Shown here: piece by piece, positions 8,525 through 47,396 of the stretch
How positions within the stretch are numbered: the stretch's first letter is position 1
Layout: every line of letters begins with the position of its first letter
From: an uncultured Prevotellaceae bacterium
GTDB lineage: Bacteria; Bacteroidota; Bacteroidia; Bacteroidales; Bacteroidaceae
Assembly: GCA_902775475.1 (NCBI GenBank)
Contig: CACYME010000005.1
Coordinates: 29,642-93,641 of the forward strand
Length of the DNA: 64,000 nt
Reading direction: 5' to 3'
Notes under the pieces: model-generated
What the model saw: the letters and a program-made list of their open reading frames with translations, nothing else
What the model was told of the DNA's origin: nothing
Database searches by the model: none
Position numbers and translations under genes: made by a program

Positions 8525-8550
8525 AATGAACGAAAGCCATAATTAAGAAT

Positions 8551-26841: not shown

Positions 26842-26849
26842 AATTTATG

Positions 26850-27587: not shown

Positions 27588-27612
27588 ACTTAGACAAACA
27601 TCGTATTCTCTT

Positions 27613-27710: not shown

Positions 27711-27881
27711 CATATAAATCATTTCGGTGTTTAGAAGGGACTACGAAAACGGGCTAAACGGGTGTTATAAACAGACAAACTCGTTGTATAGAAATGGCAA
27801 ATTGTCTGTTTTTACCTCATTTTGTAAGAAAGCGACAATTTTTTGTAAATTTTAGACAATAAGATTTCTAATAATTCTCAC

Positions 27882-27889
27882 TAACTTTG
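27882..27889 (+). promoter_or_regulatory. -7 promoter box TAACTTTG, the only such box found by eye in front of or inside the 22-kb cluster
   Basis: Matches TAnnTTTG, 13 nt upstream of ATG 27902. The TTG start at 27887 used by the ORF track lies inside the box. Confidence 0.55.
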
Positions 27890-27901
27890 CAACAACAGAA
27901 A

Positions 27902-28315: not shown

Positions 28316-28343
28316 GAACAATCACCTCCAAAATAAGTGCGAT

Positions 28344-30152
28344 ATGAAAAAGACACTTCTCCTGCTGACCACCCTGCTGAGCCTCGGTCTCGGTGCATAC
28401 GCGCAGAGCGCATGGACCGGGCCCGACGCCCACCAGTATAACGACGAGACCGTCGTCTATGCCACGCTGAGCATCAACGGCCATGCCGCCGGAGCCGACA
28501 ACGCCGACTACGCCGTGGCCGCCTTCATCGGTGACGAATGCCGCGCCGTGGCCGAGGAGGCCATGACGGGTGTCGGCGGCACGACGCTCTTCGTGCTGCG
28601 CGTGGGCGGCGACCGCGAGGCCGACCAGGGCACCACGCTGCGCTTCGAGGCCCGCTACAAGGCCAAAGGCACTACCTACGCCGTCAGCGCCGCCACCGCC
28701 GTCACGTTCAACAGCGAGAGCTGGGGCCGCCCGTCGCTGCCCGTCGTGCTCAGCGGCGAAGGCTACACGCCACACACGTCGGTCACTGGCTTCGAGTGGA
28801 GCCTCAGCGGCCAGCCCTACAACCGCGAGACTGTGCAGCTCAGGCTGACACCACGGCCCGCCAACGCCACGTTCAGTCCGGCCGACCTGCGTTTCCGCTA
28901 CACCTCCGACTACAACTGGGAGCAGGTGTGGCAGATTGTCGACTTGCAGCTGGCCTCGCGCGAACCTCTTATATATAATGTCACGTTCCAGGTGCCCATG
29001 GGCGCCGACATCAAGGCCTACTGGGCCGACGAGCCCGACGTGGAGGTGCCCCTCTGGCCTGCAGGCGAGACCGAGGCCTACTGCGCCATGACAGCGTGGT
29101 TCCGCCTCGACCTCAAGGAGGGCTGGCAGTGGCGCTCCAACCCCTGCGGCTATCTCTGGGACGACGACCTCGAAGCGGGCTTCGGCCCCTACCTCATCGA
29201 GGCCCGCACGCAGGACGAGCTGCTCTACAACGACCCCTCGTGGGGCTACTTCGGCACGATGATGGAAGGCAACGGCATCGACGACAAAATGGCCTACAAG
29301 GTGCGCATGGCCCAGGACTACCGCTCGCGCACTTTCGGCTCCACCGTCGGAACGGGTGGCGACCCCTTCGAGCTGCCCGTCAGCGAAGGATGGACCTGGA
29401 TGCCCTCGCCCTACCTCTACGACCGTCTGCTGCAGAACATCTTCCAGGCCGACCAGCTCGTTGAGGGCATGGTCATCATCTCGAAGGAAGAAGGCTCGGC
29501 CGAATGGAACGGCAGCCAGTGGGAAGGCGACCTCGAAGTGCTGCCCACCGAGCAGAGCTTCCTCCTCTATATGCCTGAAGGAGCCAGCTTCAACCTCCGC
29601 TTCAACCCCGAGCGCTACATGCCGCAGGGCAACGAGACAGCCCCCACCCCCTCGCGCCGCTCTGAGCAGGCTGAGGGCGCTGCCAGCGTAGGCCACGAGG
29701 TGGCCCGCCGCTTCCGCGACAACCTGACCATGGTGGCCACGCTGTCGCTGGCGGCTAATCAGGCTGACTACCAGCTGCGTGCCTACGTCGGCGACGAACT
29801 GCGCGGCGTGGGCCATGCCGGCCAGGCCGACCGCGTGTTCGTCACCGTCCATGCCGATGGTGGCGAGCGCGTCAGTTTCCGTCTGGCCGACCTGCACACG
29901 GGCGCCGAGTATGCCGTCGACGAAACGGTCGTCGTGGCACAGCCGCGCCTCGGCTCGCTGCGACAGCCCGTGGAGCTCCACGCCACAGCACTCACGCAGG
30001 GCATTGCCGACCTCCCCACGGAAGCCACGGCAACAGCCGCCACCCAGCGCTACGACCTGCAGGGCCGCAGCCTGTCCTCCTCTTCCCCTTCGAAGGGCAT
30101 CGTCATCCGCCGTGCTGCCGACGGCAGCGTCCGCAAGGTGGTGCAGCGGTGA
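28344..30152 (+). CDS. Exported protein of unknown function with a T9SS-like C-terminal tail (602 aa), paralog 1
   Basis: Signal peptide MKKTLLLLTTLLSLGLGAYAQS. N- and C-terminal copies of a ~90-aa FxGDECRG module and a central GWQWRSNPCG...GWTWMPSPY domain. Tail is RYDLQGRSLSSSSPSKGIVIRRAADGSVRKVVQR, resembling the S8 peptidase tail at 15340-15456. Confidence 0.7.
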   Translation: MKKTLLLLTTLLSLGLGAYAQSAWTGPDAHQYNDETVVYATLSINGHAAGADNADYAVAAFIGDECRAVAEEAMTGVGGTTLFVLRVGGDREADQGTTLRFEARYKAKGTTYAVSAATAVTFNSESWGRPSLPVVLSGEGYTPHTSVTGFEWSLSGQPYNRETVQLRLTPRPANATFSPADLRFRYTSDYNWEQVWQIVDLQLASREPLIYNVTFQVPMGADIKAYWADEPDVEVPLWPAGETEAYCAMTAWFRLDLKEGWQWRSNPCGYLWDDDLEAGFGPYLIEARTQDELLYNDPSWGYFGTMMEGNGIDDKMAYKVRMAQDYRSRTFGSTVGTGGDPFELPVSEGWTWMPSPYLYDRLLQNIFQADQLVEGMVIISKEEGSAEWNGSQWEGDLEVLPTEQSFLLYMPEGASFNLRFNPERYMPQGNETAPTPSRRSEQAEGAASVGHEVARRFRDNLTMVATLSLAANQADYQLRAYVGDELRGVGHAGQADRVFVTVHADGGERVSFRLADLHTGAEYAVDETVVVAQPRLGSLRQPVELHATALTQGIADLPTEATATAATQRYDLQGRSLSSSSPSKGIVIRRAADGSVRKVVQR

Positions 30153-30223
30153 ACGACTCCTATCGACAGTAAGCATAAAATCAGAAACAATCAATATTAA
30201 CAACCAAAAAAACAGTAACAGTT

Positions 30224-33200
30224 ATGAAAAAGCTATTATCACTGCTGATGGTCTTATGCTGCGCCATCGGAGCATCAGCACAGCAAGGCTGGACAGCCCG
30301 CACGGGCCAGTCGCAGGACAGAACGGTCGTCATAGCCGACTTTTCCGTAACCAATGGTGCGTCTGTCTATGAAGGCAACTGGCGAATTGGCGTCTTCGTC
30401 GGCGGCGAGTGCCGCTTGGTAACGAGTGACAACGCTCAAGGCGTACTGACGCACATGAACAACCAACAGTTCCTGATGCTCGAGGTTCCCGGCAACTTCG
30501 ACGATGAGAACGACGAGGGCAAGGAAATCGTCATCAAAGTCAGTTCATCGATGGGCGACGTCTACACCCTGAAGCCCGACCAGACGCTGACATGGCAGCC
30601 TGAGACCACCTACGGCGTAGGCTCCGGCCCCCGTGTGCAGTTGGCACTCACCCTTCCCGCCGAAGTCACTCTTAGTGGTTTCAGAATCGATGCAGGAAAC
30701 AGTGTCGACCTGACAAACTTCCTGAACGTCAGTCCCGCTAATGCTCAGATTCCTGAGAATCTCATCTGGTACGTTGGCAACAACTACTATCAGCCAGGTG
30801 ACTACGGTCAGTTTGCCACCATCAGCGGCAGCACGCTGACCGCCGTGAAGCCCAACCTGAGCGAAGGCGAGAACCTGCCTATTCCCTACGGCTTCGTCAT
30901 CAATGCAGGCAACTACATGCCACTAATCGTCAATGGCAACCCTGTTGAGAACGCATCTTTCTACATCGAGCAACCCGCTACGACCCTGACCATCGTCACC
31001 GAGACATTTGAGGTAGAGAGGGGCTTTGCTGAGGAACTGACCGTCTTCATGCGCAACCAACACAACTACAAGGCCTACAGCACCACCCCAGAAGAAATTA
31101 CCGACGAGGTGAAGTGGGAAATTGAGGATGCTACCTACATCCAGGAAGATCAGGGCACGTGGGAACCCATCAAGGGCGGCACCACCCGCATCCGCCCCTA
31201 CATTGAGCGCGCTGACGGCAACCTCTACCCCGAGGGCAACAAGTGGATTACGGTCAACATCATCGTGCCCGTAGAAGAAGCTTATTTCAACTGGCCTTAC
31301 GACCCACAGACGCAGCAACAGATCACCTTTAAGTGCAATGTTGGCGACGAGAACATCCTTCAGCACCTAGACCAATATGTGAGAATTCTTCCTTTGGATG
31401 CTACCGACAGGACTTACACCATCACCGACATCAGCTCTTACGGTTCGCCTCAAGAACTTGGCTACAGGCCTGTACTTTATGTCAATTCCGACAATACCAT
31501 CGAAGCCAGTGCGTCTGGTTATGCCGAACTCCTGATTCAACCCAATGGCATTGGTGGCGAAGATTTGGCATTCACTGTATTTGTAGAAGTGGACGATCCT
31601 CTCAAGGAGGTAAGCTTCACCGAGGATCCCCTTACATTCGACTCAGCAACCAACACGCTCGAAACCATCACCAGCGGAATCCGTCGTAACATCATCTGGC
31701 AAGATGAGTACAAGGCCTTGCAATTCGGAACGCTTAGCGTAGCGGGTGTTCTCACTGGCTCTGGTGAATTCTCGGCCAACGGTCCCATGCTGACCCTGAA
31801 CAACACGGAAATCCCAAAGGGCGAGAGCACCATTACCGTCAGACTCGGATGGAATGACTACAGCCAATACGACGGTACGGAAGAGTCCATCGCTCAGCAG
31901 TGGAACGCAGGCCAGAGCTTCAAGGTCGTCATCACCATGGGCCTCGACCACTTCACCATCACCGTCACCCCAAGCAGCGATGATCCCACCCGCGGCACCA
32001 TCACTCTGACGCCCGTGCCTGCTGACGCCGACTTCGACTGGGCCGACTACGCAGACATCCTCACCGTCAGCAGCGATTACTACGATAGCTCTTGGCACAC
32101 CATCGACATCAAGGCTGGAGGCGAAGGCATCTACACCTACGTGGCGCTGCTGCCTGGAATGTTCGCTGCCAACTGCGACCCTGACGAAGAGGACGTGTTT
32201 TTTGAGGTTCCCTACAGGGTCACCTTCGCCAACGGATGGCAGTGGAAGAGTAATCCTTACGGCGATATGATGTCGAACAAGAACCTCTATAGTTACTTTG
32301 GTGACGACCTTGCTGAGGCCCGCACCTACGACAAGCTGCTTTACAACGATACCGAATGGGGCTACTGGGGCTCGCTCTACGACAGCCAAGAAATCGCCAT
32401 CGAGCAGGCTCAGATGTATAAGGTGAAGATGAATGCCGCCCATGAGACCTTCCTATACGGTGGTAATAGTGCAGAATGGAACGAATTTAACGTTGCCAAG
32501 GGCTGGAATTGGATTGGCTCGCCTTACTTCTATAAGCGCACGCTGGATCGCATCACAACTCCCGTCGATGGAATGATCGTCGTGGGCAAGACAGGCTCGG
32601 CCGAATACGACTACAACAGCAACACCTGGAGCGGCGATTTGAAGGCCATCGAGCCTGGACAGGGCTATTACGTCTACATGCCCGCAGAGACAGAGACCGG
32701 AACCATTATTCTGGAATGTGAGGTCTTCGGACACATGAATCAGAGCGACGATGGCGGCGCCGGTGCCCGTGCTGCCCGCCAGAGCGTATGGAGCTACGAT
32801 CACTCGCGCTTCGCCAACAACATGACGATGGTGGCCGAGGTGAGCGACCTTGACAATCCCGAGGAGTACACCATCGGTGCATTCGTCGACGGTGAGTGCC
32901 GCGGTGAGGGTATCTTCGAGGATGGACGCGCCTTCATCACAGTACACACCGACGGCGGCGAGCAGGTGGCACTGCGCCTGCACAACGAGCTCACCGGCGA
33001 ATACACTGACATCGACCAGACCATCAGCACCACGGCCATGCGCCTCGGCTCGCTGAAGGCTCCCGTGCAGCTCACGGCACAAGGCGTCGTCACCGGCATC
33101 AGCACCGTAGAGGGCGCACAGCAGCCGACAGAGCGCTTCGACCTGAACGGACGCACCGTGAAGGGCAACCACAAGGGCATGACCATCGTGCGCCAGGCCG

Positions 33201-33229
33201 ATGGCAGCGTCCGCAAGGTAGTTCGCTAA
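30224..33229 (+). CDS. Exported protein of unknown function with a T9SS-like C-terminal tail (1001 aa), paralog 2
   Basis: Signal peptide MKKLLSLLMVLCCAIGASAQQ. It has the same terminal modules (IGVFVGGECRLV; IGAFVDGECRGEG) and central domain GWQWKSNPYG...GWNWIGSPYFY as paralog 1, plus ~400 extra residues of Ig-like segments. Tail is RFDLNGRTVKGNHKGMTIVRQADGSVRKVVR. Confidence 0.7.
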   Translation: MKKLLSLLMVLCCAIGASAQQGWTARTGQSQDRTVVIADFSVTNGASVYEGNWRIGVFVGGECRLVTSDNAQGVLTHMNNQQFLMLEVPGNFDDENDEGKEIVIKVSSSMGDVYTLKPDQTLTWQPETTYGVGSGPRVQLALTLPAEVTLSGFRIDAGNSVDLTNFLNVSPANAQIPENLIWYVGNNYYQPGDYGQFATISGSTLTAVKPNLSEGENLPIPYGFVINAGNYMPLIVNGNPVENASFYIEQPATTLTIVTETFEVERGFAEELTVFMRNQHNYKAYSTTPEEITDEVKWEIEDATYIQEDQGTWEPIKGGTTRIRPYIERADGNLYPEGNKWITVNIIVPVEEAYFNWPYDPQTQQQITFKCNVGDENILQHLDQYVRILPLDATDRTYTITDISSYGSPQELGYRPVLYVNSDNTIEASASGYAELLIQPNGIGGEDLAFTVFVEVDDPLKEVSFTEDPLTFDSATNTLETITSGIRRNIIWQDEYKALQFGTLSVAGVLTGSGEFSANGPMLTLNNTEIPKGESTITVRLGWNDYSQYDGTEESIAQQWNAGQSFKVVITMGLDHFTITVTPSSDDPTRGTITLTPVPADADFDWADYADILTVSSDYYDSSWHTIDIKAGGEGIYTYVALLPGMFAANCDPDEEDVFFEVPYRVTFANGWQWKSNPYGDMMSNKNLYSYFGDDLAEARTYDKLLYNDTEWGYWGSLYDSQEIAIEQAQMYKVKMNAAHETFLYGGNSAEWNEFNVAKGWNWIGSPYFYKRTLDRITTPVDGMIVVGKTGSAEYDYNSNTWSGDLKAIEPGQGYYVYMPAETETGTIILECEVFGHMNQSDDGGAGARAARQSVWSYDHSRFANNMTMVAEVSDLDNPEEYTIGAFVDGECRGEGIFEDGRAFITVHTDGGEQVALRLHNELTGEYTDIDQTISTTAMRLGSLKAPVQLTAQGVVTGISTVEGAQQPTERFDLNGRTVKGNHKGMTIVRQADGSVRKVVR

Positions 33230-33231
33230 AT

Positions 33232-33385
33232 GTTAAGGGTTGAGTGTTGAGAGTTAAGAGTTGAGAGACTTTAGACTGGGCGGCAGGACTGACGTCTCTC
33301 AACACTAAACACTGATCACTCAACACTCAACCCTAATTCAGCAGAACTAAAGTCTCTCAACTCTCAACCCTAAACACTCAAACCT
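33232..33385. terminator. Three-arm GTTGAGA-word hairpin element (one left arm, two alternative right arms) between paralog 2 and the OMP gene
   Basis: The left arm GTTAAGGGTTGAGTGTTGAGAGTTAAGAGTTGAGAGACTTTAG has two possible partners. One is GTCTCTCAACACTAAACAC..CACTCAACACTCAACCCTAA (33293-33335). The other is CTAAAGTCTCTCAACTCTCAACCCTAAAC (33348-33376). It belongs to the same family as 20822-20895. Confidence 0.6.
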
Positions 33386-33388
33386 AAT

Positions 33389-35188
33389 ATGATGAGCAGG
33401 AAAAATAACAATAAGGTACGCGCGTACATTAAATTTATTCTATGTACCGCAGCAATGCTGACCTCTTCCGGATGGAGGGGGCAGGGGGAGGTCTCGGCCC
33501 AGTCCATCACGCTGGGGCAGAACACCATCTCAAACATCGCCAAAAGCGACCCGCTCATCATCACTGGCGCCATCGGCACGCAGAACACCTATTACCACTC
33601 CTCCATAGGCAATGGCTACCGTTCACCGTGGGCCAACTCGTTCTACGCCGACCTTAACATCTCGCTCTATGGCATCTCCATGCCTTTTGCGTTCTACTAC
33701 AGCAACAACAACTCGTCGTGGAGCTTCCCCCACATCTCGTTCCACATCGACCCTACGTACAAGAACTGGCGCGGCCACTTCGGACGCTCCAATATGGGCA
33801 TGCACCCTTATCTGATGAACATGTCGTTCAACGGTGTGGGCCTGGAGTACAACTCCTCAAAAGTGCGCGTAGGAATCTTCCACGGCGAACTGCGCAATGC
33901 CATCAACGACGACCCCGAAAACCCCAGCGCCCGCAACCCGCAATATCGGCGCATGGGCTGGGGCATCAAGGCTGGCTATGGTTCCGGCCGCAACCACCTC
34001 GACCTGTCGTTTCTGCGAGCCTACGACCGCATCAACTCCATCGACCCGCGCTGGCAGGAAAGGATTAATCCACAAGACAACATCGCCGTGGCCGTAAAGG
34101 GCGGACTCGGCATCACCCGCTGGCTCACACTGCAGGGCAACCTGGCCTGGACAGCCTTCTCATCCGACAAGCGCGCCCAACGCCTGCATACCGAGCAAAC
34201 CGACCGCTGGGACAAGGTGTTCGACGCCCGTTACACCTCGCTGATGCGCATTGCCGGCGACATCTCAGCCACACTCAGCCTGAAGGGCTTCAACACCACT
34301 GTGTTCTATCGCATGGTGCAGCCCGACTACACCACCCTGGGACTCTACTACACCTCGAACAACTACCAGTCGCTGGGCATCAACGCCTCGACCACCCTCT
34401 TCAAGAAAGTAACCCTCTCGGCATCGTTCAGCGGCCAGGAGGACAACATAACGCGCCGCCAGCTCTACACCACGCGCGGCTTCGTCTACAACGCTACGGC
34501 TTCCACATCGCTCACAGAGAACCTCGCCCTCACTGCTGGCTACAGCGGCTATCGGCAGCTGCAATCCGACTGCAAAGCCCGCGTCAACGACACCACGCGT
34601 GTCAACCGCATCATGCACTCACTCTATCTCACCCCCTCCTACACTATCGACGGCGAAACCACCGAGAACACCTTCGCGCTCTCGGCCAGCTTCACCAAGA
34701 ACAAAGACCTGAATCGCTTCGCCACAGGCATCAGCGACGTGACGACATTCTCGGCCGGACTCAGCCACTCCATCATGGTGAAGCCATGGGAGATGTCGTT
34801 CTCGACCTCGCTATCCCACCAGCAGTCGAAGGGCTACCAGACACGCTACTCTTCCGAGATTCTCAGCTTCTCCACGGGACGCTCGTTCCTCAAGGAGAAG
34901 AACCTCTATACGTCGGCTGCCCTGTCGCTCTGCTACAACGACGTCCGCAACCAGCAGCGCAACCTCTCTGTGGGAGCCGACATCACGGCAGGCTATACGC
35001 TGGCCAAGGTGCACCAGTTCTCCTTCGCGGCCGGATTCAACAAATACAGCGACACCAACATCTCGGCCGACTACACTTCCATGGGCACCACCGAGATCAG
35101 CCTATCGCTCAACTACAACTACACCTTCTCGCTGCTCCAGCTGAAGAGCAAAAAGACGGCAGATGCGGCCTCCGGCCAAAATAAATAA
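33389..35188 (+). CDS. Putative outer-membrane beta-barrel protein (599 aa), family not recognised
   Basis: Signal peptide ...CTAAMLTSSGWRGQGEVSAQS. The sequence is Y/S/N/G/T-rich with alternating-hydrophobic strands throughout, e.g. LSASFSGQ, LTAGYSGY, FSAGLSHS and ISLSLNYNYTFSL near the C-terminus. Confidence 0.55.
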   Translation: MMSRKNNNKVRAYIKFILCTAAMLTSSGWRGQGEVSAQSITLGQNTISNIAKSDPLIITGAIGTQNTYYHSSIGNGYRSPWANSFYADLNISLYGISMPFAFYYSNNNSSWSFPHISFHIDPTYKNWRGHFGRSNMGMHPYLMNMSFNGVGLEYNSSKVRVGIFHGELRNAINDDPENPSARNPQYRRMGWGIKAGYGSGRNHLDLSFLRAYDRINSIDPRWQERINPQDNIAVAVKGGLGITRWLTLQGNLAWTAFSSDKRAQRLHTEQTDRWDKVFDARYTSLMRIAGDISATLSLKGFNTTVFYRMVQPDYTTLGLYYTSNNYQSLGINASTTLFKKVTLSASFSGQEDNITRRQLYTTRGFVYNATASTSLTENLALTAGYSGYRQLQSDCKARVNDTTRVNRIMHSLYLTPSYTIDGETTENTFALSASFTKNKDLNRFATGISDVTTFSAGLSHSIMVKPWEMSFSTSLSHQQSKGYQTRYSSEILSFSTGRSFLKEKNLYTSAALSLCYNDVRNQQRNLSVGADITAGYTLAKVHQFSFAAGFNKYSDTNISADYTSMGTTEISLSLNYNYTFSLLQLKSKKTADAASGQNK

Positions 35189-35201
35189 TGATAAATGATA
35201 T

Positions 35202-41200: not shown

Positions 41201-44200
41201 GGATGCCGACATCATTGTCGACCGAAAAACTTACAATTACTATAAAAATGGAACATTTACTGGCAATGGCTTCAAAGGTGTCGTAAAGCCCAATGACGAC
41301 AATTTCTTGAAATATTTATACAAAAACGACAAAGGCGGTTTGTATTCTTGGAACAATGCCATCATGAGCCGCTGGATGAAAAATCAGAATCTGGACTGTC
41401 AGGAGAAAGAAATGAATGAAGATGACTTTGAAGGGGATGAGGCATTATGGAATGTGAGATACTGGAAAGGCTATAACTTAAAGCGCGAATCGGAAAGAGA
41501 GACATGGCATGATCACTATGATGGTGTGGAAGAAATGATTAAGCCCTTCCTCGTTGCAGACACTATGCAATACCAGATAATGCCTGGGTTTTATTTACCT
41601 CTCCTGGTTCCTGGCGGTGTGACCATCAAGGAAAGCACCGGGCGTAATTTCCACCTGACGCTGTCTAACCTTAAGCCAGGCAAGCTTTATATCCTGGAAC
41701 TGAACGGCCAGGCCTTCGAGGTGCTCAACGGCAAGCGTGTGTGGACGAAAATGACAGTGACGACCAAAAAGAAGGGCAAAGAAAAGATGCGCGAGGAATA
41801 CGTGCGCTGGGAGCAGAAGCGCCTGGTGTTCTTCCGCACGAAGACCGAGGCGGAGGAGCAGGAAGCTATCCCCAACAACCCAACCGACATCCAGCCATAC
41901 GTGGCACTGGCCTACCCCTCGGCACCTGGCAACAAGCTCTTCCAGACCAAGGCAGAAGGAGAGAAGAACAGGGCCAACATCGTAGACATCAAGCGTCCCA
42001 CCATCGCCTTGAACACCGACATACGCTCGAAACTCTCGAGCGGAAAGCTGGAATGGGTGCTACAGGGATATGCCTACAACTCCACCGGTACGAGAGCCAT
42101 CAAGCAACAAACGATAGAAAACGAATTCAAGGATGTCAGCGGCTGCGTGAACATGCAGCCCAAGAAGGATTTCGACCTCTCCTCATTGCAGAACACGTAT
42201 CCTGAACTTGATGACTTCCAAATCTTGCTGAAACACACCTATCCCGTCTACAAGGGAACGACCAAGGTGGCTGCATCGGGAGAGTCTATGGATGAATTGA
42301 CAGCAAGATATGCGGCCGTGCACGGAGAGGGAGCATTGTACGATTATATCATTAATTACTATAACAATCTTGTCAGCGACGAAGCGAAGCTTGACATGAG
42401 CGGAGCTACGCTTGACAAAAAGGAAGCGACTTGCTTTGGGATAATATTGGGATTATATTTGGCAGGTAGTCAGCAGGCCGTAAACGACCTTCAAACCAAT
42501 TTATTAAGCTTATTGGGTACTCGATTTGTTGACCAAGAAGTTTACAAAGACACCACCGTCTATCTGGCCAACATGTGGTTCAAGGGTTTGCCCGAAGCCT
42601 CCTGGCATTTGGGCAACAATGGCCCTACGGCTTACGAGAAGCAGTTTGTGGGCATCCGCCCGTTCAACACGCCAGAATTTACCTTTGGCGGCTGGAACCC
42701 TGACGATGACTACACCACAGGCAACCAAAGTGAAGAGAACGGACAGCCGATGAGAATTGCCGACCCCTACCTCTATTTCGCCTACCTGTCGAAACATGTG
42801 TTCATCGGCGACGTGGCACTCGACAAATACGATTTCGACGATGTGAAAGTGCCGCACGCCAGCGAATCGCTCACCTTCAGCTTCAATGGCCACGGCATCT
42901 CAGGCTCGCTCATCCCAGGCAGCAAATACCGCGACAAACGCATGTCAACGCTACGCGGAGAGATGTACGACACCTGGAGGAAAGCCTGGTACTATAAAAA
43001 CAACACCAACTACTCTGACTTGGTCTATCCGCTGCCCCTGTATCCGGACGAAGACTGGGGACTGACAAGCAACAACCAGACGTTCATCTCGCAACGATAC
43101 AATAAGTTCAACAACTGGGATGTCAATTATGTTGGCTCGGCCGTCAGGCGGAGCGATAAGACAAAGGACGGCAAAGGCGGCAAATACCTGGCTCAGCAGT
43201 TCACCGCACCTTACTACATCGCCGAGACTTTGAGTAGACAAATGGGAAAGATTGCCAACCAGATTTATAATATCTACAAATCATCTTCCGACAACAAGAC
43301 AGTGAACAAGGCTATGATTGCCTGGCAGAATCTGCATCGCGGTCAATATCTGTCGGTGAGCAGTTGCGGTTTTGAGGTGAAAGTGCCCTACTATCAGTTC
43401 CCGCTCATCTTCGGCGACTGTCTCAGCGGCGACCGCACGTTCAGCAAGTCCATCAAGGACAATGCCGACAACCTCATCACCAAGTTCAGGAACGACAGGA
43501 AGACGTCCAACCTGTACTTCTTCCGCCTGATGGGAGGAACGCCATTAGACAAATACGATAAGAAAAATTATCCCTACATCTACAATTCCTCTGGCAATGT
43601 AACACAAGATTTATTCAGTGCTTCCGCAGCATTAAAAACAGTAAAGAAATTCGACTACCTGGCCTATCGCGTCAACAGCTACGACCTGTCAACCAATCGG
43701 TATGAGTACAATACCGGCATTGGCAATAATGGCACGTACGCTGGGACATATCCCAATACTGACGTGAGCGTCACGCTTGTCGACAATAACAACAACAATA
43801 CTAATGGTTACTACATCAATATGGAGTATGCCATGCGCACGTTGGGCCAACCGGATGTCTACATCAACGGGGTTCCCAATCAGAATTGGGGCGATGGCAA
43901 CAGTGCCATAGTGACCGCTACCGCATTGTCCAACCTCTCCCGATGGATGCAGGACAACGTGCCCGACCTCTATGCCATCTATAAGGAAAGTAACAATGCC
44001 AACAAGATCAAGATGCTGCAGGAATGGGCCAAGGCAAACGACCCGACGCTGGGCAAGGAGAACAAGGCCCTACACGATATCATGTTATGGGACAAAAATG
44101 CGGTTTCTTATTATAAAGTACAAAACCAGATTAATCTGATATATGGCATGCCTGCTACTTACCCCGAATCGGAACCCAAATTCCCCAACACGCTCTTCAA

Positions 44201-44237
44201 AGACATCATCTCACATAAATATGGAATTATATGGTAA
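35202..44237 (+). CDS. Giant exported protein, 3011 aa, unknown function
   Basis: A single uninterrupted ORF starting 13 nt after the OMP stop. Signal peptide-like MMALALSFIIYHLSFSRAAAQD. Charged low-complexity linkers occur, such as EKAGDKAGDKAGGKDGSGGKSGSGDKGKEEEH at 38217-38335. No catalytic motif was recognised by eye. Confidence 0.8.
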   Translation: MAMNKKERIKSFCSMIKDSRWMMALALSFIIYHLSFSRAAAQDVTLQVTPVQSVLPPQAGKYIDNLGRYFRVTVINNTDAAQRIYFGVQVQQKFPNDVLWMSTNVETMHIPQQPIVLSPNQHKTLNSIELKHLFDHFDSHDIFVREGRYKNILDSEFGLLDEGQYELQLTAYKWDPELSSPVVLNNQTDGLALFNICYEAEAPTFISPIRSLVPDGLSDLAITKINKKQAQIRFEWTQPTLNCNATMVNYRYRIRFVELGSMMPDEAMEENTITFLEQRELLTNSYSIPTPYVAQMIADTAAYGKVYAMQVTAYTPYQNKNSLNVALIKNEGKSDIFLFQLYDPEKADRSVTKGEAKGSDVIAEDGGVLYRFEQPTLTSPQFPDNRSRLMFVGDSIKVEWRKAWFAGGKGERQDTVNFEYTVNLFKGNTADTREVILKTTKPFYTKTTKELKDTIRWKAIQSEIKSGDYCILRVTAKPTNKPDSIFKMQGDSLNFKDFAFTSHFDETYMCGRNTATVENKEPIAEKPKAGTRYKIGQWNLELIDEPSRPLEFDKEKKTLKGFGRIEWSVMKPKAYIAVKFDSLKVNTDGIVFDGICKTYAKSSQKVDGTEYTEEQIVDSLFSLASLDNIFGSLSIPKSVQDRVTGYAKDEATNLAKSYNLGKYYTQYKKAETTWENWQKGDLGDLYFPFEAPDEIKKYLPKDFSLQIGNMTFSPSYSVMNLIGAITLPNSDIFEDQNVLVFGAPRLCISPDRFFPEDGVLALLSNFVISDPSSDFKLVFKAPSDPLNPVTEDGCFIKWENDEFDALGMEIAMTIPNTTRVVDGKTQKDVPALLDLWTTIEAGGNACDFIAEGTMTPFQVNDLPDWTFTVGKKIVFDHHLERNGKNMPTLKTVEEWSNNTYDLKEVTNYKSWEAWQGVYIDEISVQFPKWAVIGNGEKGVTLGGQHMIFDASGVTAKFFAKDVLNAETGKCGGWKFTIDEANVQIVQNNFDNCSIKGGFGVPLLGKVSQEKAGDKAGDKAGGKDGSGGKSGSGDKGKEEEHQDTDIDYFCQIRNMTDPESVETYYTYDNDGKKIEHTRKKYYEEKNRYGYVFTTQNASKAKLGLNFYIADMTLLEKQTYFLVESVDTVINKEETQYTQVELCMAGDITIAGIDQLNGTKSDSQKSSFAKRVEEINKSLPLPLKLPGIHFAKMRLSNKALNDWKNLGVDLENTHQKGIEAQEKWEQDNKKLYEFSAGKEIALGKECYFNYGEWSLASAEKKLGPFTFTLKEFKPDMKGDSIMLDVEGQIGLMDGKFAVGAGIRLQAMAHTQGSISDWYVDDGEVKFKSFEMNVDWEVFKFSGRLDLEDSGTDKGYGGNINLEIKDLFKLDVAGGYYNHKGISEEEKKTKIADAKLRAAKEDHNENLYKKYYNPDEDFYSWGYFLATVGGQGLRIDPIVINRITGGFFYNCNPVVGQKDAKGRPSYTGKPTAKYGTIGVVFGVGITTSGGEETIQGDFDVVVIYDKKNSRMSHFEFNGDISAVGDIVHAKASIIYENNDADRYFCMNLTMTVGLDSDAMVEKLGVISNELSALKNELDKFQGSISSVVMKKPSKDEMKGDLDKMESDYGNKTKKADENKTDEKVSKGAQKSTVSYGKTDIYVEFKVTYRENGSDTYPTKWHLYLGEPKKEKRCLFQTIDYKDENGIIAVNIGSDAYLCVGNELPGNGQLPDIPAEITEFLNGHKNSAVSTGADMSKVNNARSKVIKDMLQNAGTKGGVMVGASTWGFVNVELGLFYGYMKAIGGFDISLVKYANPQYCANYGGYMGINNWYAMGQLYAYLAAKFGLHIKLGKLIDEHVDLVDAGIGGLFKLGLPSPTWIEGQARVKVSLLGGLVKVDKGFNFSAGSKCVPFKGNALDDFALFGDFTVADDDVNEGWKKENAVSVKDAKNIQFSTYANLGERYRLYDPTTGGELSEETGYSEDQMSLYASRTYIFDINKARVLEENKNANYNISLGARLYEIPLDADIIVDRKTYNYYKNGTFTGNGFKGVVKPNDDNFLKYLYKNDKGGLYSWNNAIMSRWMKNQNLDCQEKEMNEDDFEGDEALWNVRYWKGYNLKRESERETWHDHYDGVEEMIKPFLVADTMQYQIMPGFYLPLLVPGGVTIKESTGRNFHLTLSNLKPGKLYILELNGQAFEVLNGKRVWTKMTVTTKKKGKEKMREEYVRWEQKRLVFFRTKTEAEEQEAIPNNPTDIQPYVALAYPSAPGNKLFQTKAEGEKNRANIVDIKRPTIALNTDIRSKLSSGKLEWVLQGYAYNSTGTRAIKQQTIENEFKDVSGCVNMQPKKDFDLSSLQNTYPELDDFQILLKHTYPVYKGTTKVAASGESMDELTARYAAVHGEGALYDYIINYYNNLVSDEAKLDMSGATLDKKEATCFGIILGLYLAGSQQAVNDLQTNLLSLLGTRFVDQEVYKDTTVYLANMWFKGLPEASWHLGNNGPTAYEKQFVGIRPFNTPEFTFGGWNPDDDYTTGNQSEENGQPMRIADPYLYFAYLSKHVFIGDVALDKYDFDDVKVPHASESLTFSFNGHGISGSLIPGSKYRDKRMSTLRGEMYDTWRKAWYYKNNTNYSDLVYPLPLYPDEDWGLTSNNQTFISQRYNKFNNWDVNYVGSAVRRSDKTKDGKGGKYLAQQFTAPYYIAETLSRQMGKIANQIYNIYKSSSDNKTVNKAMIAWQNLHRGQYLSVSSCGFEVKVPYYQFPLIFGDCLSGDRTFSKSIKDNADNLITKFRNDRKTSNLYFFRLMGGTPLDKYDKKNYPYIYNSSGNVTQDLFSASAALKTVKKFDYLAYRVNSYDLSTNRYEYNTGIGNNGTYAGTYPNTDVSVTLVDNNNNNTNGYYINMEYAMRTLGQPDVYINGVPNQNWGDGNSAIVTATALSNLSRWMQDNVPDLYAIYKESNNANKIKMLQEWAKANDPTLGKENKALHDIMLWDKNAVSYYKVQNQINLIYGMPATYPESEPKFPNTLFKDIISHKYGIIW

Positions 44238-46540
44238 GCAATAAGAATATCCTCGTTGTTGGGGCCACGCTGCTCATGAGCGGCTCCACGGCCATGGCCC
44301 AGTCTACTGACAGCATTGCCAGCCCAGACATCCTGACGGTAGCCGACAGTACCCAGCATCGTCAGCTGGTCGACGCCGACACCATCATCTACCAGGAGCC
44401 ATCCATCATCACCACGAAGATTCGCGCCCTGGCCCGCACCTATGGCGACAGCATCGCGCTGCGGTGGGTGCCCGAAGACTACGTGTCATGGCGCTACCTC
44501 TGCCAGACGGGCGTCAACATCCTTCGCACGGAGAGCAACGCCGAGACCTTTGCCATCGACACGCTGGCCTATGCGCTGAAGCCCCTCAGCGAGGAAGCGT
44601 TCAGGGCGAAGTATGCGCCCAACGACAGCAACGCGCTGGTGGCTCAGGGCATCCTCTATGGCGAGGGTCGCCTGGGTGCCAACCAGACCGAGAACTTCCC
44701 TGGCTCCATGGGGGCTTCGATGGAATACAACAACGAGCAGGATCTCTCATTTGCCTTCGCCATGCTCGTGGCCGAATGGCGCCCCGACCTGGCCCGCGAC
44801 ATGGCCGTAGGCTTCCTCGACCGCACCGCGCAGCCCGGCAAGATGTACGACTACTACATCCAGCCCACGCAGTGGGACACCGACGGCCGCCTCATCTTCG
44901 AGCCTGGTGTGGCTGAGCGCGTGAGAAACCATGAATACACGCCCGACATCTTCGACCCTCGGATGGTAGACTCCATCTCCAGTCCGCGCCGCCACGTGCT
45001 GGGCTGGTGGGACGACAAGTACTCCACTTATGACATCTATCGTCGCCACGTGAGCGATGCCGATGGCAATCCCGTTGACGGGACGTGGAAGCGCATCAAC
45101 CAAAAGCCCTATCTCTCCATCATCGAGCTGCCAGAGGGCGACGACTACAAAGCCTACTCCGACTCCGTGCCCAGCTTCGGCGTCTACGAATACTTTGTTG
45201 TGGGCCACGACCCCTTCGGCACCGCCAACCCATCGCTCCACCATCTCAAGGTGAACGTCTACGACAACGAGCCGCCATCGGCACCACAGCTGAAGGGTAT
45301 CGTCGTCGACTACCCCGACGACGACATCCGCGGACGAACGCGGGCACACATCATCTGGGAGAAGGACACGATAGAGGGCGACCTACAGGGCTACGTGGTC
45401 AGATACTACAACGCGAAGATCAGCGGCGAGACTTGGATAGAGCTGAACGACAAGATGATTCCCCCGACGGACACGATGTTTGTGGCCGACGTCACCGGCC
45501 TGCGCACGGGCATGCTGCAGGTGGCGGCCTACGACCTGTCGGGCAACGAGGCCACGTCGTTTTCGCAGCTCATCGAGCTACACGACTTCAAGGCTCCCGC
45601 CCCCCCTGACTCACTAACGGCACAGGTGGTGGTGCCACAACTGACACCGCTCTACAAGAAAGAGATGAAGCATGCCTACGTCATCCTACGCTGGAAGCCC
45701 AACCCTGCCGACGACGACATCATGCACTACGACATCGCCTTCGCCAACGACACCACCCACGCCTTCCAGCGACTCAACGAGCAGTCCATCAACGCCCAGT
45801 GGTTCATCGACTCGCTGGCCCTCGACGCCAACCAGAAATACATCTACTACAAGGTGCGCGCCACCGACTATTCTACCAACGAGGGCGAGTGGAGCCCCTG
45901 GATTCAGGTGAAGCGCCCACACCTCACACCGCCCACACAGCCCCACTTGGAACGCTCGAACAACAGCGACGAGGAGGGCATCCACATGGAGTGGGTGATA
46001 GGAACTGATGCCGACATGGAGTATCACAAAGCCTTCCGCCGCCGTGGCGAGGTGGGTGAATGGGAGCTGATAGGCCGCTACGACCACGACTCGCTGACGG
46101 CCCACAGCTACACCATCGTCATCGACGACCGGCCAGAGTTCGACCGCCAGCAGCGCTACTACTACTACGTGGAGTCGTTCAACTCGTCGCCCTTCACCTC
46201 GAAGAGCCTCGCCGTGAGCTTCCTCTTCCAGGGCCCGAAGATATGGGACGTCAGCCTGAAACTCATCGGCGACTACGACGAGAAGACGAACCTGACGCGA
46301 CTGGTGTGGGACACGGGCAAGCTGCCCTTCGATGCCCCCTACTACTACTGCATCTACCGGCGAGCCGCTGGCGAGGAGCGCTATGAATACATGGGCAACG
46401 TGCCAGCTGACACACAGGAATTCACCGACCAGCGCCTGAAGCCGGGCGAGCAGGCCGAGTACTATGTGATGATACAGTGGCGCGACGGACGGCAGAGCAC
46501 ACTGTCGAATACCATCACGGTGAAGAGAAGTGAAAAGTGA
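44231..46540 (+). CDS. Exported protein made of repeated fibronectin-type-III-like modules (769 aa)
   Basis: The start overlaps the giant gene stop (ATGGTAA). Signal peptide NILVVGATLLMSGSTAMAQS. There are 4-5 repeats of a W..(D/P)..D..GY..Y......W......Y.Y.V.A.D..GNE pattern, e.g. AHIIWEKDTIEGDLQGYVVRYY...LQVAAYDLSGNEATS and YVILRWKPNP...IYYKVRATDYSTNEGEWS. Confidence 0.6.
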   Translation: MVSNKNILVVGATLLMSGSTAMAQSTDSIASPDILTVADSTQHRQLVDADTIIYQEPSIITTKIRALARTYGDSIALRWVPEDYVSWRYLCQTGVNILRTESNAETFAIDTLAYALKPLSEEAFRAKYAPNDSNALVAQGILYGEGRLGANQTENFPGSMGASMEYNNEQDLSFAFAMLVAEWRPDLARDMAVGFLDRTAQPGKMYDYYIQPTQWDTDGRLIFEPGVAERVRNHEYTPDIFDPRMVDSISSPRRHVLGWWDDKYSTYDIYRRHVSDADGNPVDGTWKRINQKPYLSIIELPEGDDYKAYSDSVPSFGVYEYFVVGHDPFGTANPSLHHLKVNVYDNEPPSAPQLKGIVVDYPDDDIRGRTRAHIIWEKDTIEGDLQGYVVRYYNAKISGETWIELNDKMIPPTDTMFVADVTGLRTGMLQVAAYDLSGNEATSFSQLIELHDFKAPAPPDSLTAQVVVPQLTPLYKKEMKHAYVILRWKPNPADDDIMHYDIAFANDTTHAFQRLNEQSINAQWFIDSLALDANQKYIYYKVRATDYSTNEGEWSPWIQVKRPHLTPPTQPHLERSNNSDEEGIHMEWVIGTDADMEYHKAFRRRGEVGEWELIGRYDHDSLTAHSYTIVIDDRPEFDRQQRYYYYVESFNSSPFTSKSLAVSFLFQGPKIWDVSLKLIGDYDEKTNLTRLVWDTGKLPFDAPYYYCIYRRAAGEERYEYMGNVPADTQEFTDQRLKPGEQAEYYVMIQWRDGRQSTLSNTITVKRSEK

Positions 46541-46581
46541 AGAGTGAAGATTTTGCTTCCGCTGAAAAAACGCAAAAGGAT

Positions 46582-47379
46582 ATGAAAAGGAGAATGTTTT
46601 GGCTTCAGAAGCGCTGGGCATCGTCACTCAGCCTGATAGCGATAAGTGCATTGTTGGTCGCCTGCGGCGAATACTGGGAGGGCGGCGAGCCCGTGGCTGC
46701 CCGGAAGATGACGCTGGGGCGAAAGGTGGTGAACATGGTGGTGGGCGACCGCTACCGCATTCCCGTCTTCTTCGAGCCCGACACGCTCTCGAACCGCGCC
46801 GTGTTCTGGCAGACGGAGGACAATGAGATAGCCCTGGTGGAGAACGACACGGTAGTAGCCGTCAACGTGGGCCTCACACGGGCCTACGCACTGAGCGTCA
46901 GCGACCGACAGACGGACTCATGCTGGGTGAACGTGTTGCCACCGATGTACATCAACTCTAAGCTGTACCCCTACGACATGGTCATCTATGCCGACGTCAC
47001 CATCCATGGCCACCACTACACCCAGGCCGACGAAGACTCGCTCATCATCGCCGCCTACTCTGGCGATGACCTGCGGGGCATCGGCAAGATGCGCCAGTGG
47101 AACGACAAAGACTACATGGAGCTGCGCATCTGGAGCCCCATCCGCTATGGCGGCGAAGTGCAGCTGCGCTGCTACTACCGGGGCAAGGCCCTGGCCGAGG
47201 TATTCCCCGACGTGCTGGAGTTCGACGGCGACGCTCACGGCACGCTCTCGAACCTCTACCCGCTGGTGCTCGACAACAACGCCGAGGAATACCTGCCCGC
47301 CATCGACCCCGACGACTACGACCCCTACCACGAAGATGGCGATACCATCCATGTGGTCATAACCGACCCAGAACCTTAA
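46582..47379 (+). CDS. Lipoprotein with a Big_2-like Ig domain and one copy of the FxGDECRG-type module (265 aa)
   Basis: Lipobox MKRRMFWLQKRWASSLSLIAISALLVAC. Big_2-like segment VVNMVVGDRYRIPVFFEPDTLSNRAVFWQTEDNEIALVENDTVVAVNVGLTRAYAL. Module is LIIAAYSGDDLRGIG...MELRIWSPIRYGGEVQLRCYY. An alternative GTG start at 46537 would overlap the upstream stop. Confidence 0.65.
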   Translation: MKRRMFWLQKRWASSLSLIAISALLVACGEYWEGGEPVAARKMTLGRKVVNMVVGDRYRIPVFFEPDTLSNRAVFWQTEDNEIALVENDTVVAVNVGLTRAYALSVSDRQTDSCWVNVLPPMYINSKLYPYDMVIYADVTIHGHHYTQADEDSLIIAAYSGDDLRGIGKMRQWNDKDYMELRIWSPIRYGGEVQLRCYYRGKALAEVFPDVLEFDGDAHGTLSNLYPLVLDNNAEEYLPAIDPDDYDPYHEDGDTIHVVITDPEP

Positions 47380-47396
47380 AAAAAAGCATAACCATT

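What the first reader, a model, noticed from the sequence alone, without database searches (positions are those of the whole stretch)
28440..47274. A ~90-aa FxGDECRG module occurs five times in three proteins, linking T9SS-tailed cargo to a lipoprotein of the same cluster
The copies are at about 28440-28751 and 29721-29980 (paralog 1, N- and C-terminal), 30317-30645 and 32815-33080 (paralog 2, N- and C-terminal), and 46972-47274 (265-aa lipoprotein). A shared pattern is visible in the translations. A hydrophobic strand comes first (NLTMVATLSL / NMTMVAEVSD / YDMVIYADVTI / ETVVYATLSI / RTVVIADFSV). Then comes Y-x-[IL]-[GAR]-A-[FY]-[VI]-G-[DG]-[ED]-[CL]-R-G (AVAAFIGDECRAV, LRAYVGDELRGVG, IGVFVGGECRLV, IGAFVDGECRGEG, IIAAYSGDDLRGIG). 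Next is F-[IVL]-x-V and then GGE-x-V-x-[FL]-R (GGERVSFRL, GGEQVALRL, GGEVQLRCYY). The module ends in GSL[KR]xPV[EQ]L. The two T9SS paralogs also share a central domain (GWQWRSNPCG...EARTQDELLYNDPSWGYFG...GWTWMPSPYLY versus GWQWKSNPYG...EARTYDKLLYNDTEWGYWG...GWNWIGSPYFY). In the cargo the module sits at both termini, directly before the sorting tail. This suggests a docking or self-association function.
Basis: seen in the sequence. Interest (0 to 1): 0.65.

Follow-up and report, generated by a model that had tools for sequence, protein, structure and literature searches.

The report
Unannotated beta-sandwich domain of T9SS proteins
The five copies of a ~95-residue beta-sandwich domain are real and sit in two secreted surface proteins and a lipoprotein of a conserved rumen-Prevotella operon, but the domain is a widespread, unnamed building block of such secreted proteins, so a specific cargo-to-lipoprotein docking role is not shown.

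Summary
Exactly five copies of one domain are in the 64-kb window, at the stated places. An HMM built only from unrelated proteins of other taxa finds these five and nothing else. AlphaFold2 predicts a seven-strand beta-sandwich (pLDDT 91). It has no Pfam, NCBIfam or PDB sequence match and only weak fold matches.

The domain is not special to this locus. At least 4,643 protein clusters (50% identity) carry it, with up to 9 copies per protein, in T9SS-tailed adhesin-like proteins of Bacteroidales, Rhodothermia and Cloacimonadota. It is usually the first domain after the signal peptide. It also usually follows a second unnamed "double-GW" domain.

The gene linkage is real and old. The order AraC-HTH, 1-2 cargo, OMP, ~3000-aa giant, FN3 protein, lipoprotein, 811-aa lipoprotein recurs in all 8 distinct cargo loci and 21 of 22 informative lipoprotein loci, down to 25-33% identity.

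The three module subtypes (N-cap, pre-tail, lipoprotein) are deeply diverged, all acidic, and no closer to each other than to copies elsewhere. They are nevertheless better conserved than neighbouring spacer domains.

Most likely this is a constrained surface-display or binding end-domain. Direct cargo-lipoprotein docking is possible but untested.

The parts
23923..26841 (-). Hybrid sensor (TPR - HisKA/HATPase - receiver - AraC HTH), divergent from the cluster; candidate regulator
   Evidence: Pfam hits. A split TPR/AraC gene plus an HK-RR gene also lie upstream of the homologous operon in L025.
27902..28315 (+). Small AraC-type HTH protein (~130 aa), first gene of the cluster
   Evidence: HTH_18 3.6e-23. 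A 134-aa HTH_18 gene sits in the same position in L022-L024.
28344..30152 (+). Cargo paralog P1 (602 aa): signal peptide, N module, Ig-like spacer, double-GW domain, C module, short T9SS CTD
   Evidence: Translation. AF2 model pLDDT 85. 142 homolog clusters, all named 'hypothetical protein', from Prevotella and Bacteroidaceae.
28437..28754 (+). Module copy 1 (N-cap subtype) of P1
   Evidence: HMM hits.
29121..29612 (+). Double-GW central domain of P1 (internally duplicated ~80-aa unit, unannotated)
29712..29981 (+). Module copy 2 (pre-CTD subtype) of P1
   Evidence: HMM hits.
30000..30152 (+). Short T9SS C-terminal signal of P1 (50 aa from the predicted Q|GI cleavage site)
   Evidence: Motif comparison with PMC11969387. 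No Pfam or TIGRFAM hit.
30224..33229 (+). Cargo paralog P2 (1001 aa): same plan as P1 with a ~500-aa Ig-like middle region
30314..30646 (+). Module copy 3 (N-cap subtype) of P2
32234..32725 (+). Double-GW central domain of P2
32810..33076 (+). Module copy 4 (pre-CTD subtype) of P2; this copy was modelled
   Evidence: AF2 model: seven strands, pLDDT 91.4.
33095..33229 (+). Short T9SS C-terminal signal of P2 (44 aa from T|GI)
33389..35188 (+). 599-aa outer-membrane-protein-like gene, always between cargo and giant
   Evidence: 52-87% identical orthologs in the same position in 8 loci. Only a faint OMP_b-brl hit, in L035.
35202..44237 (+). 3011-aa giant protein with signal peptide; no CTD motif seen by eye; no Pfam or PDB match
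   Evidence: Conserved upstream of FN3 and LP.
44231..46540 (+). 769-aa FN3-repeat protein with signal peptide
   Evidence: fn3 1.4e-5. Directly upstream of LP in 23 of 24 loci.
46582..47379 (+). 265-aa lipoprotein LP: lipobox LLVAC (Cys at 46663), Big_2-like domain (46708-46941), module, variable acidic tail
   Evidence: Homologs P0034, P0371 and P0376 carry PF02368.
46966..47277 (+). Module copy 5 (lipoprotein subtype)
   Evidence: It is the only module in each of 21 related 20-kb loci.
47397..49832 (+). 811-aa lipoprotein (MKTIISRLCCFIGLTAMMASC...), last gene of the cluster. The listed 911-aa ORF is over-extended into LP.

Best explanation
The five segments are copies of one previously unnamed domain of ~90-105 residues that folds as a seven-strand beta-sandwich.

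The domain is a general building block of T9SS-secreted surface proteins across the FCB group. It is typically the first domain after the signal peptide. It is also typically the domain that follows a second unnamed 'double-GW' domain in front of the secretion tail.

In this window it occurs as three old, orthologously conserved subtypes. They lie inside a conserved Prevotellaceae operon: AraC-HTH, 1-2 cargo, OMP, giant, FN3 protein, lipoprotein, 811-aa lipoprotein.

Most likely mechanism, with shown and inferred steps marked:
1. The cargo is exported by Sec and then by the T9SS (inferred from the signal peptide and short-CTD motifs).
2. The tail is cut at T/Q|GI, a few residues behind the last strand of the C copy, and the new C-terminus is coupled to a surface glycolipid, as shown for Prevotella intermedia cargo (inferred by analogy).
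3. The C copy therefore becomes the cell-proximal pedestal of the double-GW head, and the N copy becomes the distal tip (inferred).
4. The lipoprotein holds its own copy on a Big_2 stalk (shown by sequence and by homologs).

I read the module as a constrained end-domain for display or ligand binding. Its conserved A-F-x-G-x-E-x-R-G hairpin would contact a common kind of ligand or neighbouring domain. On this reading the three proteins share the module because they belong to the same envelope assembly, not because the copies bind each other.
For: - Homology and copy count.
- Fold.
- No curated family, even for proteins made only of modules.
- Breadth: 4,643 clusters at E <= 1e-3 and 1,750 at E <= 1e-10.
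- Partner domains include Por_Secre_tail, CHU_C, Flg_new_2, cadherin, Big_9 and fn3.
- Taxa include Cloacimonadota, Bacteroidales and Rhodothermia.
- Tandem arrays of 4-9 copies occur. The first copy starts within 60 aa of the N-terminus in 34 of 44 multi-copy proteins.
- A module follows the double-GW domain within 21-60 aa in 11 of 13 unrelated proteins and 196 of 197 family proteins.
- Other module proteins lie in loci without giant, OMP, FN3 or LP genes.
- Subtypes are no closer to each other than to the general pool, and all are acidic.
- The whole cargo model resembles a Bacteroides surface glycan-binding protein, SGBP-B 6e57, E = 2e-5.
- Tail motifs and lengths fit Prevotella short CTDs.
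Against: - The modules are not behaving like plain spacers. The C copy is the best-conserved part of P2-like proteins (52% against 23-32% elsewhere). The N and C copies of P1-like proteins are 45-48% conserved against 28% for the adjacent Ig spacer. The lipoprotein copy is 62% conserved.
- A nearly invariant Arg/Glu pair is unusual for a purely structural Ig-like domain.
- The lipoprotein is the only non-T9SS context seen for the module. It is strictly tied to the operon in 23 of 24 loci. That pattern would also fit a specific partner.
- No binding, topology or localisation data exist. The lipoprotein's mature N-terminus, CG[DE][YF]W[DE]GG[DE]P, does not match the known surface-export signal.
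Confidence: 0.45

Rival explanations
1. Docking module. The copies on cargo and lipoprotein bind each other heterotypically, or all bind one operon-encoded partner (giant, FN3 protein or OMP). Secreted cargo would then be tethered non-covalently to an operon-specific envelope complex.
For: - Module-bearing cargo and module-bearing lipoprotein co-occur strictly in one operon down to 25-33% identity.
- The modules are more conserved than spacer domains, and the lipoprotein subtype is very conserved, with mean within-class score 122 bits against 60-80 for the other two.
- The lipoprotein is the only lipid-anchored context found among the proteins examined.
- The P1 model's pTM of 0.67 hints at a packed rather than beads-on-a-string arrangement.
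Against: - The domain is widespread in proteins and loci that lack any lipoprotein, giant or OMP partner, and it occurs in arrays of up to 9 copies.
- All subtypes are acidic, with no charge complementarity.
- Subtypes are not closer to each other than to the general pool.
- It is not established that the lipoprotein and the mature cargo are on the same side of the outer membrane.
- No interaction test was possible.
Confidence: 0.25
2. Carbohydrate-binding module. The beta-sandwich binds dietary, host or the cell's own surface glycans. The cargo would be T9SS-displayed glycan-binding proteins, and the lipoprotein a lipid-anchored one, analogous to SGBPs.
For: - The best PDB fold matches are CBM20 and CBM25 starch-binding domains.
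- The whole cargo model best matches B. ovatus SGBP-B.
- Conserved aromatic, Glu and Arg residues sit in one hairpin.
- Tandem repetition and terminal position are typical of CBMs.
- The organisms are rumen and gut polysaccharide degraders.
Against: - The fold matches are weak (E >= 0.04, TM <= 0.54, 5-14% identity).
- No CAZyme, SusC/D or PUL genes are in the operon.
- No CBM family HMM matches.
Confidence: 0.15
3. Plain structural spacer. This is an Ig-like stalk domain with no partner, and its presence in the lipoprotein is incidental domain shuffling.
For: Promiscuous architectures, tandem arrays, a generic beta-sandwich fold and an acidic extracellular composition.
Against: - It is markedly better conserved than the true spacer regions of the same proteins.
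- It carries invariant charged residues.
- It shows strong positional preference: first domain, and after the double-GW domain.
- Three subtypes have been conserved for the whole history of the operon.
Confidence: 0.15

Closest known systems
IgSF domain of gingipains RgpB/Kgp (PDB 1cvr, 4ief, 4rbm, 6i9a), the beta-sandwich between the functional domain and the T9SS CTD
   Same: It is a beta-sandwich placed immediately N-terminal to a T9SS C-terminal signal in a Bacteroidales cargo. It appears among the Foldseek hits (prob 0.91-0.95).
   Different: There is no sequence similarity. The structural match is weak (TM 0.38-0.47, E 0.11-0.18). The module also caps N-termini, forms arrays and occurs in a lipoprotein.
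CBM20 / CBM25 starch-binding modules (PDB 1cqy, 8x8k, 2c3w)
   Same: They are the top PDB fold matches. They are small beta-sandwiches of similar size and are often terminal or tandem.
   Different: E >= 0.038, TM <= 0.5, 7-14% identity. There is no CBM HMM match. Sugar-binding residues were not assessed. No CAZyme context is present.
Bacteroides surface glycan-binding protein SGBP-B (PDB 6e57)
   Same: It is the best match to the whole P1 model (E = 2e-5). Both are a chain of Ig-like domains ending in a binding domain and are displayed on a Bacteroidota surface.
   Different: SGBP-B is a lipoprotein of a PUL, whereas P1 and P2 are T9SS cargo of a non-PUL operon. TM is only 0.14-0.20, so this is an overall multi-domain resemblance only.
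Prevotella intermedia T9SS cargo with 'short' CTDs (Ye et al. 2025, PMC11969387)
   Same: The tail is 44-50 aa, within the reported 40-51 range. It has the x|GI cleavage motif, a motif B Y/F-D-L-x-G-R, a G..I motif D and a basic motif E.
   Different: The motif D tyrosine or asparagine is replaced (KGIVI, KGMTI). The paper's HMMs were not available here. Standard PF18962 and TIGR04183 models do not hit.
Repeat domains of large bacterial surface proteins: Big_2 (PF02368), tandem-95 repeat (NF012211), InlB B-repeat (PF18998)
   Same: They are found in the same proteins, have similar size, form tandem arrays and are extracellular.
   Different: The HMMs do not match the module. In P0159 and P0162 the tandem-95 hits lie outside the module copies.
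Shared localisation modules such as cohesin-dockerin or SLH domains
   Same: This is a conceptual parallel for one module shared by several proteins of one surface assembly.
   Different: There is no sequence or fold evidence of relatedness, and no interaction has been shown.

Membership tests
T9SS type-A cargo with Prevotella 'short' CTD | N-terminal Sec signal peptide | tested here: met
   MKKTLLLLTTLLSLGLGAYAQ|S and MKKLLSLLMVLCCAIGASAQ|Q, read from the translations. No predictor was run.
T9SS type-A cargo with Prevotella 'short' CTD | C-terminal signal of 40-51 aa after an x|GI cleavage motif, with motifs B (Y..G + basic), D (GxY/N-I) and E (K/R) | tested here: inconclusive
   Lengths are 50 and 44 aa. 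Q|GI and T|GI, RYDLQGR / RFDLNGR and DGSVRKVV are present. Motif D reads KGIVI / KGMTI, without the Y/N. This is a motif comparison by eye, not the authors' HMM.
T9SS type-A cargo with Prevotella 'short' CTD | Match to Por_Secre_tail (PF18962 / TIGR04183) | tested here: not met
   No hit at E <= 0.1 for P1 or P2. Module-bearing relatives P0037, P0161, P0162 and P0177 do match.
T9SS type-A cargo with Prevotella 'short' CTD | T9SS-dependent secretion, CTD cleavage and glycan attachment | not testable with these tools
   Needs proteomics or mutants. No T9SS machinery genes are in the window.
Ig-like / CBM-like beta-sandwich fold | Two-sheet sandwich of about 7 strands | tested here: met
   AF2 model of the P2 C copy: 7 strands, pLDDT 91.4, pTM 0.79. 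The same strand pattern appears for both copies in the P1 model.
Ig-like / CBM-like beta-sandwich fold | Significant structural match to a classified member | tested here: inconclusive
   Best PDB hit E = 0.038, TM <= 0.54. Best viral hit is an uncharacterised marine-virus protein, E = 2.4e-4, TM 0.73.
CBM20/CBM25 | Family HMM match and conserved sugar-binding aromatic sites | tested here: not met
   No Pfam hit at E <= 10 for the five copies, or at E <= 5 for module-only proteins. Binding sites were not assessed.
Big_2 (PF02368) / tandem-95 (NF012211) | HMM match over the module | tested here: not met
   The Big_2 signal in LP homologs lies upstream of the module (P0034).
Bacterial outer-membrane lipoprotein (LP) | Lipobox with invariant Cys after a signal peptide | tested here: met
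   ALLVAC|GEYW. The CG[DE][YF]W[DE]GG[DE]P segment is conserved in the 73 full-length LP-family members aligned.
Surface-exposed Bacteroidota lipoprotein | Lipoprotein export signal: polar or basic residue followed by two or more consecutive acidic residues at +3 to +6 (PMC5080379) | tested here: not met
   LP has single acidic residues at +3, +6 and +9 only. Its topology is therefore open.

The most novel reading that the evidence does not exclude
The operon (AraC-HTH, cargo, OMP, ~3000-aa giant, FN3 protein, two lipoproteins) encodes a previously unrecognised envelope apparatus of Prevotellaceae and Segatella. In it, the unnamed module acts as an address or docking domain that fixes T9SS-delivered cargo to an operon-specific lipoprotein/OMP/giant complex. 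This would be a non-covalent alternative or supplement to LPS anchoring.
Probability: 0.2. Interest if true: 0.75.

Novelty: new variant of a known kind. Interest (0 to 1): 0.45.

Why it matters
Two domain families, the module and the double-GW domain, lack any Pfam or NCBIfam model. Together they occupy the two ends and the core of P1; P2 adds a ~500-aa Ig-like middle region. These proteins belong to a family of T9SS surface proteins in dominant rumen and gut Prevotellaceae, including one cluster with 6,813 member sequences (P0124) recovered from metagenome assemblies whose host was not identified here.

Naming these domains would improve annotation of thousands of 'hypothetical' secreted proteins across the FCB group.

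The conserved ~22-kb operon with a 3,000-residue protein of unknown function is itself an uncharacterised surface or envelope system. It appears transcribed in the sheep gut, although the run stores assembled contigs and DNA carry-over cannot be excluded.

If the module proves to be a docking or ligand-binding unit, it would show how T9SS cargo is organised after secretion.

Tried and rejected
- **Curated family searches.** Pfam and NCBIfam scans of P1, P2, LP, the giant, the OMP, the five copies and module-only proteins gave nothing relevant.
- **PDB sequence searches.** The module profile, P1, the giant, the OMP and the double-GW profile gave nothing.
- **Fold searches.** Foldseek of the module against the PDB gave only weak generic Ig/CBM hits. 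Against BFVD it gave one uncharacterised marine-virus protein.
- **A sixth copy.** I looked in the giant, FN3, OMP and 811-aa proteins and in the rest of the window with five different HMMs and --max. None was found.
- **Tandem-95 repeat.** I considered that the module is this repeat, because relatives carry that name. Rejected: those hits lie elsewhere in the proteins.
- **Donor strand.** I considered a donor-strand role for the lipoprotein's C-terminal 'VVITD' tail. Rejected: the tail is variable and only 30% conserved.
- **Charge complementarity between subtypes.** Absent.
- **Recent in-locus duplication as the origin of the lipoprotein copy.** Rejected.
- **Word-indexed search with the module profile.** It returned only proteins of 191 aa or less, mostly contig-end fragments, so it says little about distribution.
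- **Metagenome scan with the giant as anchor.** It gave only 5 loci.
- **Literature.** I found no description of the module or the operon.
- **Not possible.** No multimer prediction was available.
Full report
**1. The observation**

The region holds same-strand genes:
- P1 (ORF 28290-30152, true start 28344)
- P2 (30224-33229)
- a 599-aa OMP-like gene
- a 3011-aa giant
- a 769-aa FN3 protein
- a lipoprotein LP (46582-47379)
- a further lipoprotein whose listed 911-aa ORF is over-extended (true start 47397)

Pairwise similarity between the copies is modest, so I tested it three ways.
- Leave-one-out HMMs against all 818 six-frame segments of the window recover the omitted copy as the best non-training hit each time. 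The E-values are 1.7e-9, 5.5e-12, 0.01, 1.6e-3 and 2.1e-4.
- An HMM made only from copies in unrelated multi-copy proteins of other organisms finds exactly these five segments, with E from 5e-13 to 3e-5, and nothing else.
- Profile-profile comparison of the subtype alignments gives 97.8-99.8% probability.

The shared central domain of P1 and P2 is also real: 35% identity over 448 aa, E = 1e-64.

**2. What the module is**

AlphaFold2 on a 23-sequence alignment predicts a seven-strand beta-sandwich with pLDDT 91.4 and pTM 0.79. The same strand pattern appears for both copies in a full-length P1 model with pLDDT 85.

Neither Pfam-A nor NCBIfam matches the module. This holds even for proteins made almost wholly of tandem modules. 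A PDB sequence-profile search is empty.

Foldseek gives only weak matches:
- CBM20 and CBM25 starch-binding modules, Ig V domains and the gingipain IgSF domain in the PDB, with E >= 0.038 and TM <= 0.54
- one uncharacterised marine-virus protein in BFVD, with TM 0.73

It is therefore a new sequence family within a very common fold class.

**3. How widespread it is**

An exhaustive HMM search of 1.84 billion cluster representatives finds 4,643 proteins at E <= 1e-3 and 1,750 at E <= 1e-10. Some carry up to nine copies.

Partner domains include Por_Secre_tail, CHU_C, InlB B-repeats, cadherin, Big_9 and fn3. Named members come from Cloacimonadota, Bacteroidales and Rhodothermia. They are annotated as T9SS sorting-domain, PKD-domain or tandem-95 proteins, never for the module itself. 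The tandem-95 hits lie outside the module copies.

Among 44 proteins with three or more copies:
- the first copy starts within 60 residues of the N-terminus in 34
- the last copy ends 40-115 residues from the C-terminus in 16

The family-wide signature is A-F-x-G-x-E-x-R-G in the strand 2-3 hairpin, plus a late G...P. The Arg is 98% conserved.

Four other module-bearing proteins that I looked up lie among other T9SS cargo genes or next to a PorP/SprF gene. None has a homolog of the giant, OMP, FN3 or LP genes nearby. The module is therefore common and promiscuous.

**4. A second unnamed domain and a cassette**

The central domain (P1 29121-29612, P2 32234-32725) is an internally duplicated unit. 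Its pattern is GW.W...[KR].Q...GW.G.L...PG.GY. It has no Pfam or PDB match.

It recurs in unrelated module-bearing proteins. A module follows it within 21-45 residues in 11 of 13 such cases. In the P1/P2 family a module follows within 23-60 residues in 196 of 197 cases. One caveat applies: the set was selected for having modules.

So 'module directly before the sorting tail' is more exactly a [double-GW - module] cassette placed before the tail.

**5. The tails and the lipoprotein**

Standard CTD models do not hit P1 or P2. However, their last 50 and 44 residues fit the 'short CTD' class described for Prevotella intermedia. That class is 40-51 aa with an x|GI cleavage motif, motif B Y..G plus a basic residue, motif D G.. 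then I, and a basic motif E. Cleavage and C-terminal glycan attachment were shown experimentally for it (PMC11969387).

Here the motifs are Q|GI and T|GI, RYDLQGR / RFDLNGR, KGIVI / KGMTI and DGSVRKVV. They are nearly invariant in 36 homologs. The motif D tyrosine is missing.

LP has a lipobox (LLVAC), a Big_2-like domain (PF02368 in homologs P0034, P0371 and P0376), the module and a variable acidic tail. Its conserved mature N-terminus is CG[DE][YF]W[DE]GG[DE]P. This lacks the run of acidic residues that defines the Bacteroidota lipoprotein export signal (PMC5080379). Surface exposure of LP is therefore not established.

**6. The operon**

Twenty-one loci from rumen Prevotella and Prevotellaceae MAGs encode an LP relative.
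- 18 show giant - FN3 - LP - 811-aa lipoprotein.
- 2 are cut by contig ends but are consistent with that order.
- 1 (L007) lacks the giant.
- LP relatives at only 31-33% identity sit in the same context.
- Each 20-kb locus holds exactly one module, the one in LP.

Starting from cargo relatives, all 8 distinct loci show 1-2 cargo genes with N and C modules, followed by the OMP and the giant. This includes relatives at 25-29% identity and one cluster with 6,813 member sequences.

One contig, JAFUEP010000005.1, carries the whole series (L003 + L022). Cargo and LP relatives also share contigs or near-adjacent locus tags in at least four further assemblies.

A small AraC-type HTH gene precedes the cargo here (27902-28315) and in L022. 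A TPR-kinase-receiver-AraC hybrid sensor lies divergently upstream, with split equivalents in L025.

Contigs of a sheep gut metatranscriptome cover the whole cluster. This suggests transcription, although DNA carry-over cannot be excluded.

**7. Bearing on function**

Against specific cargo-LP docking:
- The three subtypes are deeply diverged. Mean BLAST bits are N-C 21, N-LP 19 and C-LP 13, against 60, 80 and 122 within the classes.
- Each subtype is at least as close to the general pool as to the others. The LP copy is therefore not a duplicate of its neighbours.
- All subtypes are acidic, net -5 to -10.
- Arrays of up to nine copies look like adhesin stalks or multivalent binders.

For a specific, constrained role:
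- In P2-like proteins the C copy is the best-conserved segment: 52%, against 23-32% for the rest and 38% for the CTD.
- In P1-like proteins the N and C copies are 45-48% conserved, against 28% for the adjacent Ig spacer.
- The LP copy is 62% conserved.
- The invariant Glu/Arg hairpin and the positional rules also argue against a mere spacer.

The whole P1 model best matches a Bacteroides surface glycan-binding protein, 6e57, at E = 2e-5, followed by Fab-like tandem Ig chains.

**8. Conclusion**

The best reading is a new family of beta-sandwich end-domains of T9SS surface proteins.
- The pre-tail copy, paired with the double-GW domain, would form the cell-proximal base after tail removal.
- The N copy would form the distal cap.
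- The lipoprotein copy sits on a Big_2 stalk.

The three proteins share the module because they belong to one conserved envelope operon, and they probably contact a common kind of ligand. My confidence in this reading is 0.45.

The alternatives remain open:
- direct or partner-mediated docking, 0.25
- a glycan-binding role, 0.15
- a plain spacer, 0.15

They need multimer prediction and experiments that I could not run.

Noticed in passing
window 29121-29612 and 32234-32725: The 'central domain' is an internally duplicated ~80-aa unit (GW.W...[KR].Q...GW.G.L...PG.GY). It has no Pfam or PDB match. It recurs in unrelated T9SS proteins and is almost always followed by a module within 21-60 residues.
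   Followed up: partly
window 27902-28315: A small AraC-type HTH gene (HTH_18, 3.6e-23) lies directly upstream of P1, so the listed P1 ORF start (28290) is over-extended and the true start is 28344. A similar small HTH gene precedes the cargo in L022, and precedes other module-bearing T9SS genes in L040.
   Followed up: partly
window 23923-26841 (- strand): A hybrid TPR - histidine kinase - receiver - AraC sensor is divergent from the cluster. In L025 a TPR/AraC protein and a separate kinase-receiver protein occupy the equivalent upstream region, which suggests a conserved regulatory link.
   Followed up: no
window 35202-44237: The 3011-aa protein has a signal peptide, no CTD motif seen by eye, a Lys/Gly/Asp-rich low-complexity stretch (KAGDKAGDKAGGKDGSGGKSGSGDKGK) and no Pfam, NCBIfam or PDB sequence match. 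It is conserved with the 599-aa OMP-like gene in every related locus. Its function is unknown.
   Followed up: partly
window 47097-49832: The 911-aa ORF overlaps LP in another frame for its first ~100 codons. The real gene starts at 47397 and encodes an 811-aa lipoprotein (MKTIISRLCCFIGLTAMMASC|NLFIDDDELE) with an acidic run after the Cys. It is conserved downstream of LP.
   Followed up: partly
L002/L013/L021, L003/L007/L012, L001/L015: Single MAGs (RUG12472, RGIG4424, RGIG3793) carry two or three paralogous copies of the operon's downstream half. L007 has LP and the downstream lipoprotein but no giant and only an FN3 remnant.
   Followed up: no
window 26842-27900: A ~1-kb AT-rich intergenic region (GC ~0.47 against ~0.58 around it) holds a perfect 17-nt palindrome (27309-27325 / 27338-27354) overlapping a tandem 18-nt direct repeat (27325-27342, 27346-27363). 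It could be a terminator or an operator.
   Followed up: no
window 28000-47999 (run X15): Sheep gut metatranscriptome contigs cover the whole cluster. Local depth peaks occur near 34670-35336 (OMP end / giant start) and 46009-46675 (FN3 end / LP start). Most contigs are 90-95% identical, so they come from related strains.
   Followed up: no
window 2867-9633; L025 9501-9962: The window also encodes a bacterial alpha-2-macroglobulin (1885 aa) followed by a DUF1573 protein. In L025 a DUF1573 gene lies immediately upstream of the cargo gene.
   Followed up: no
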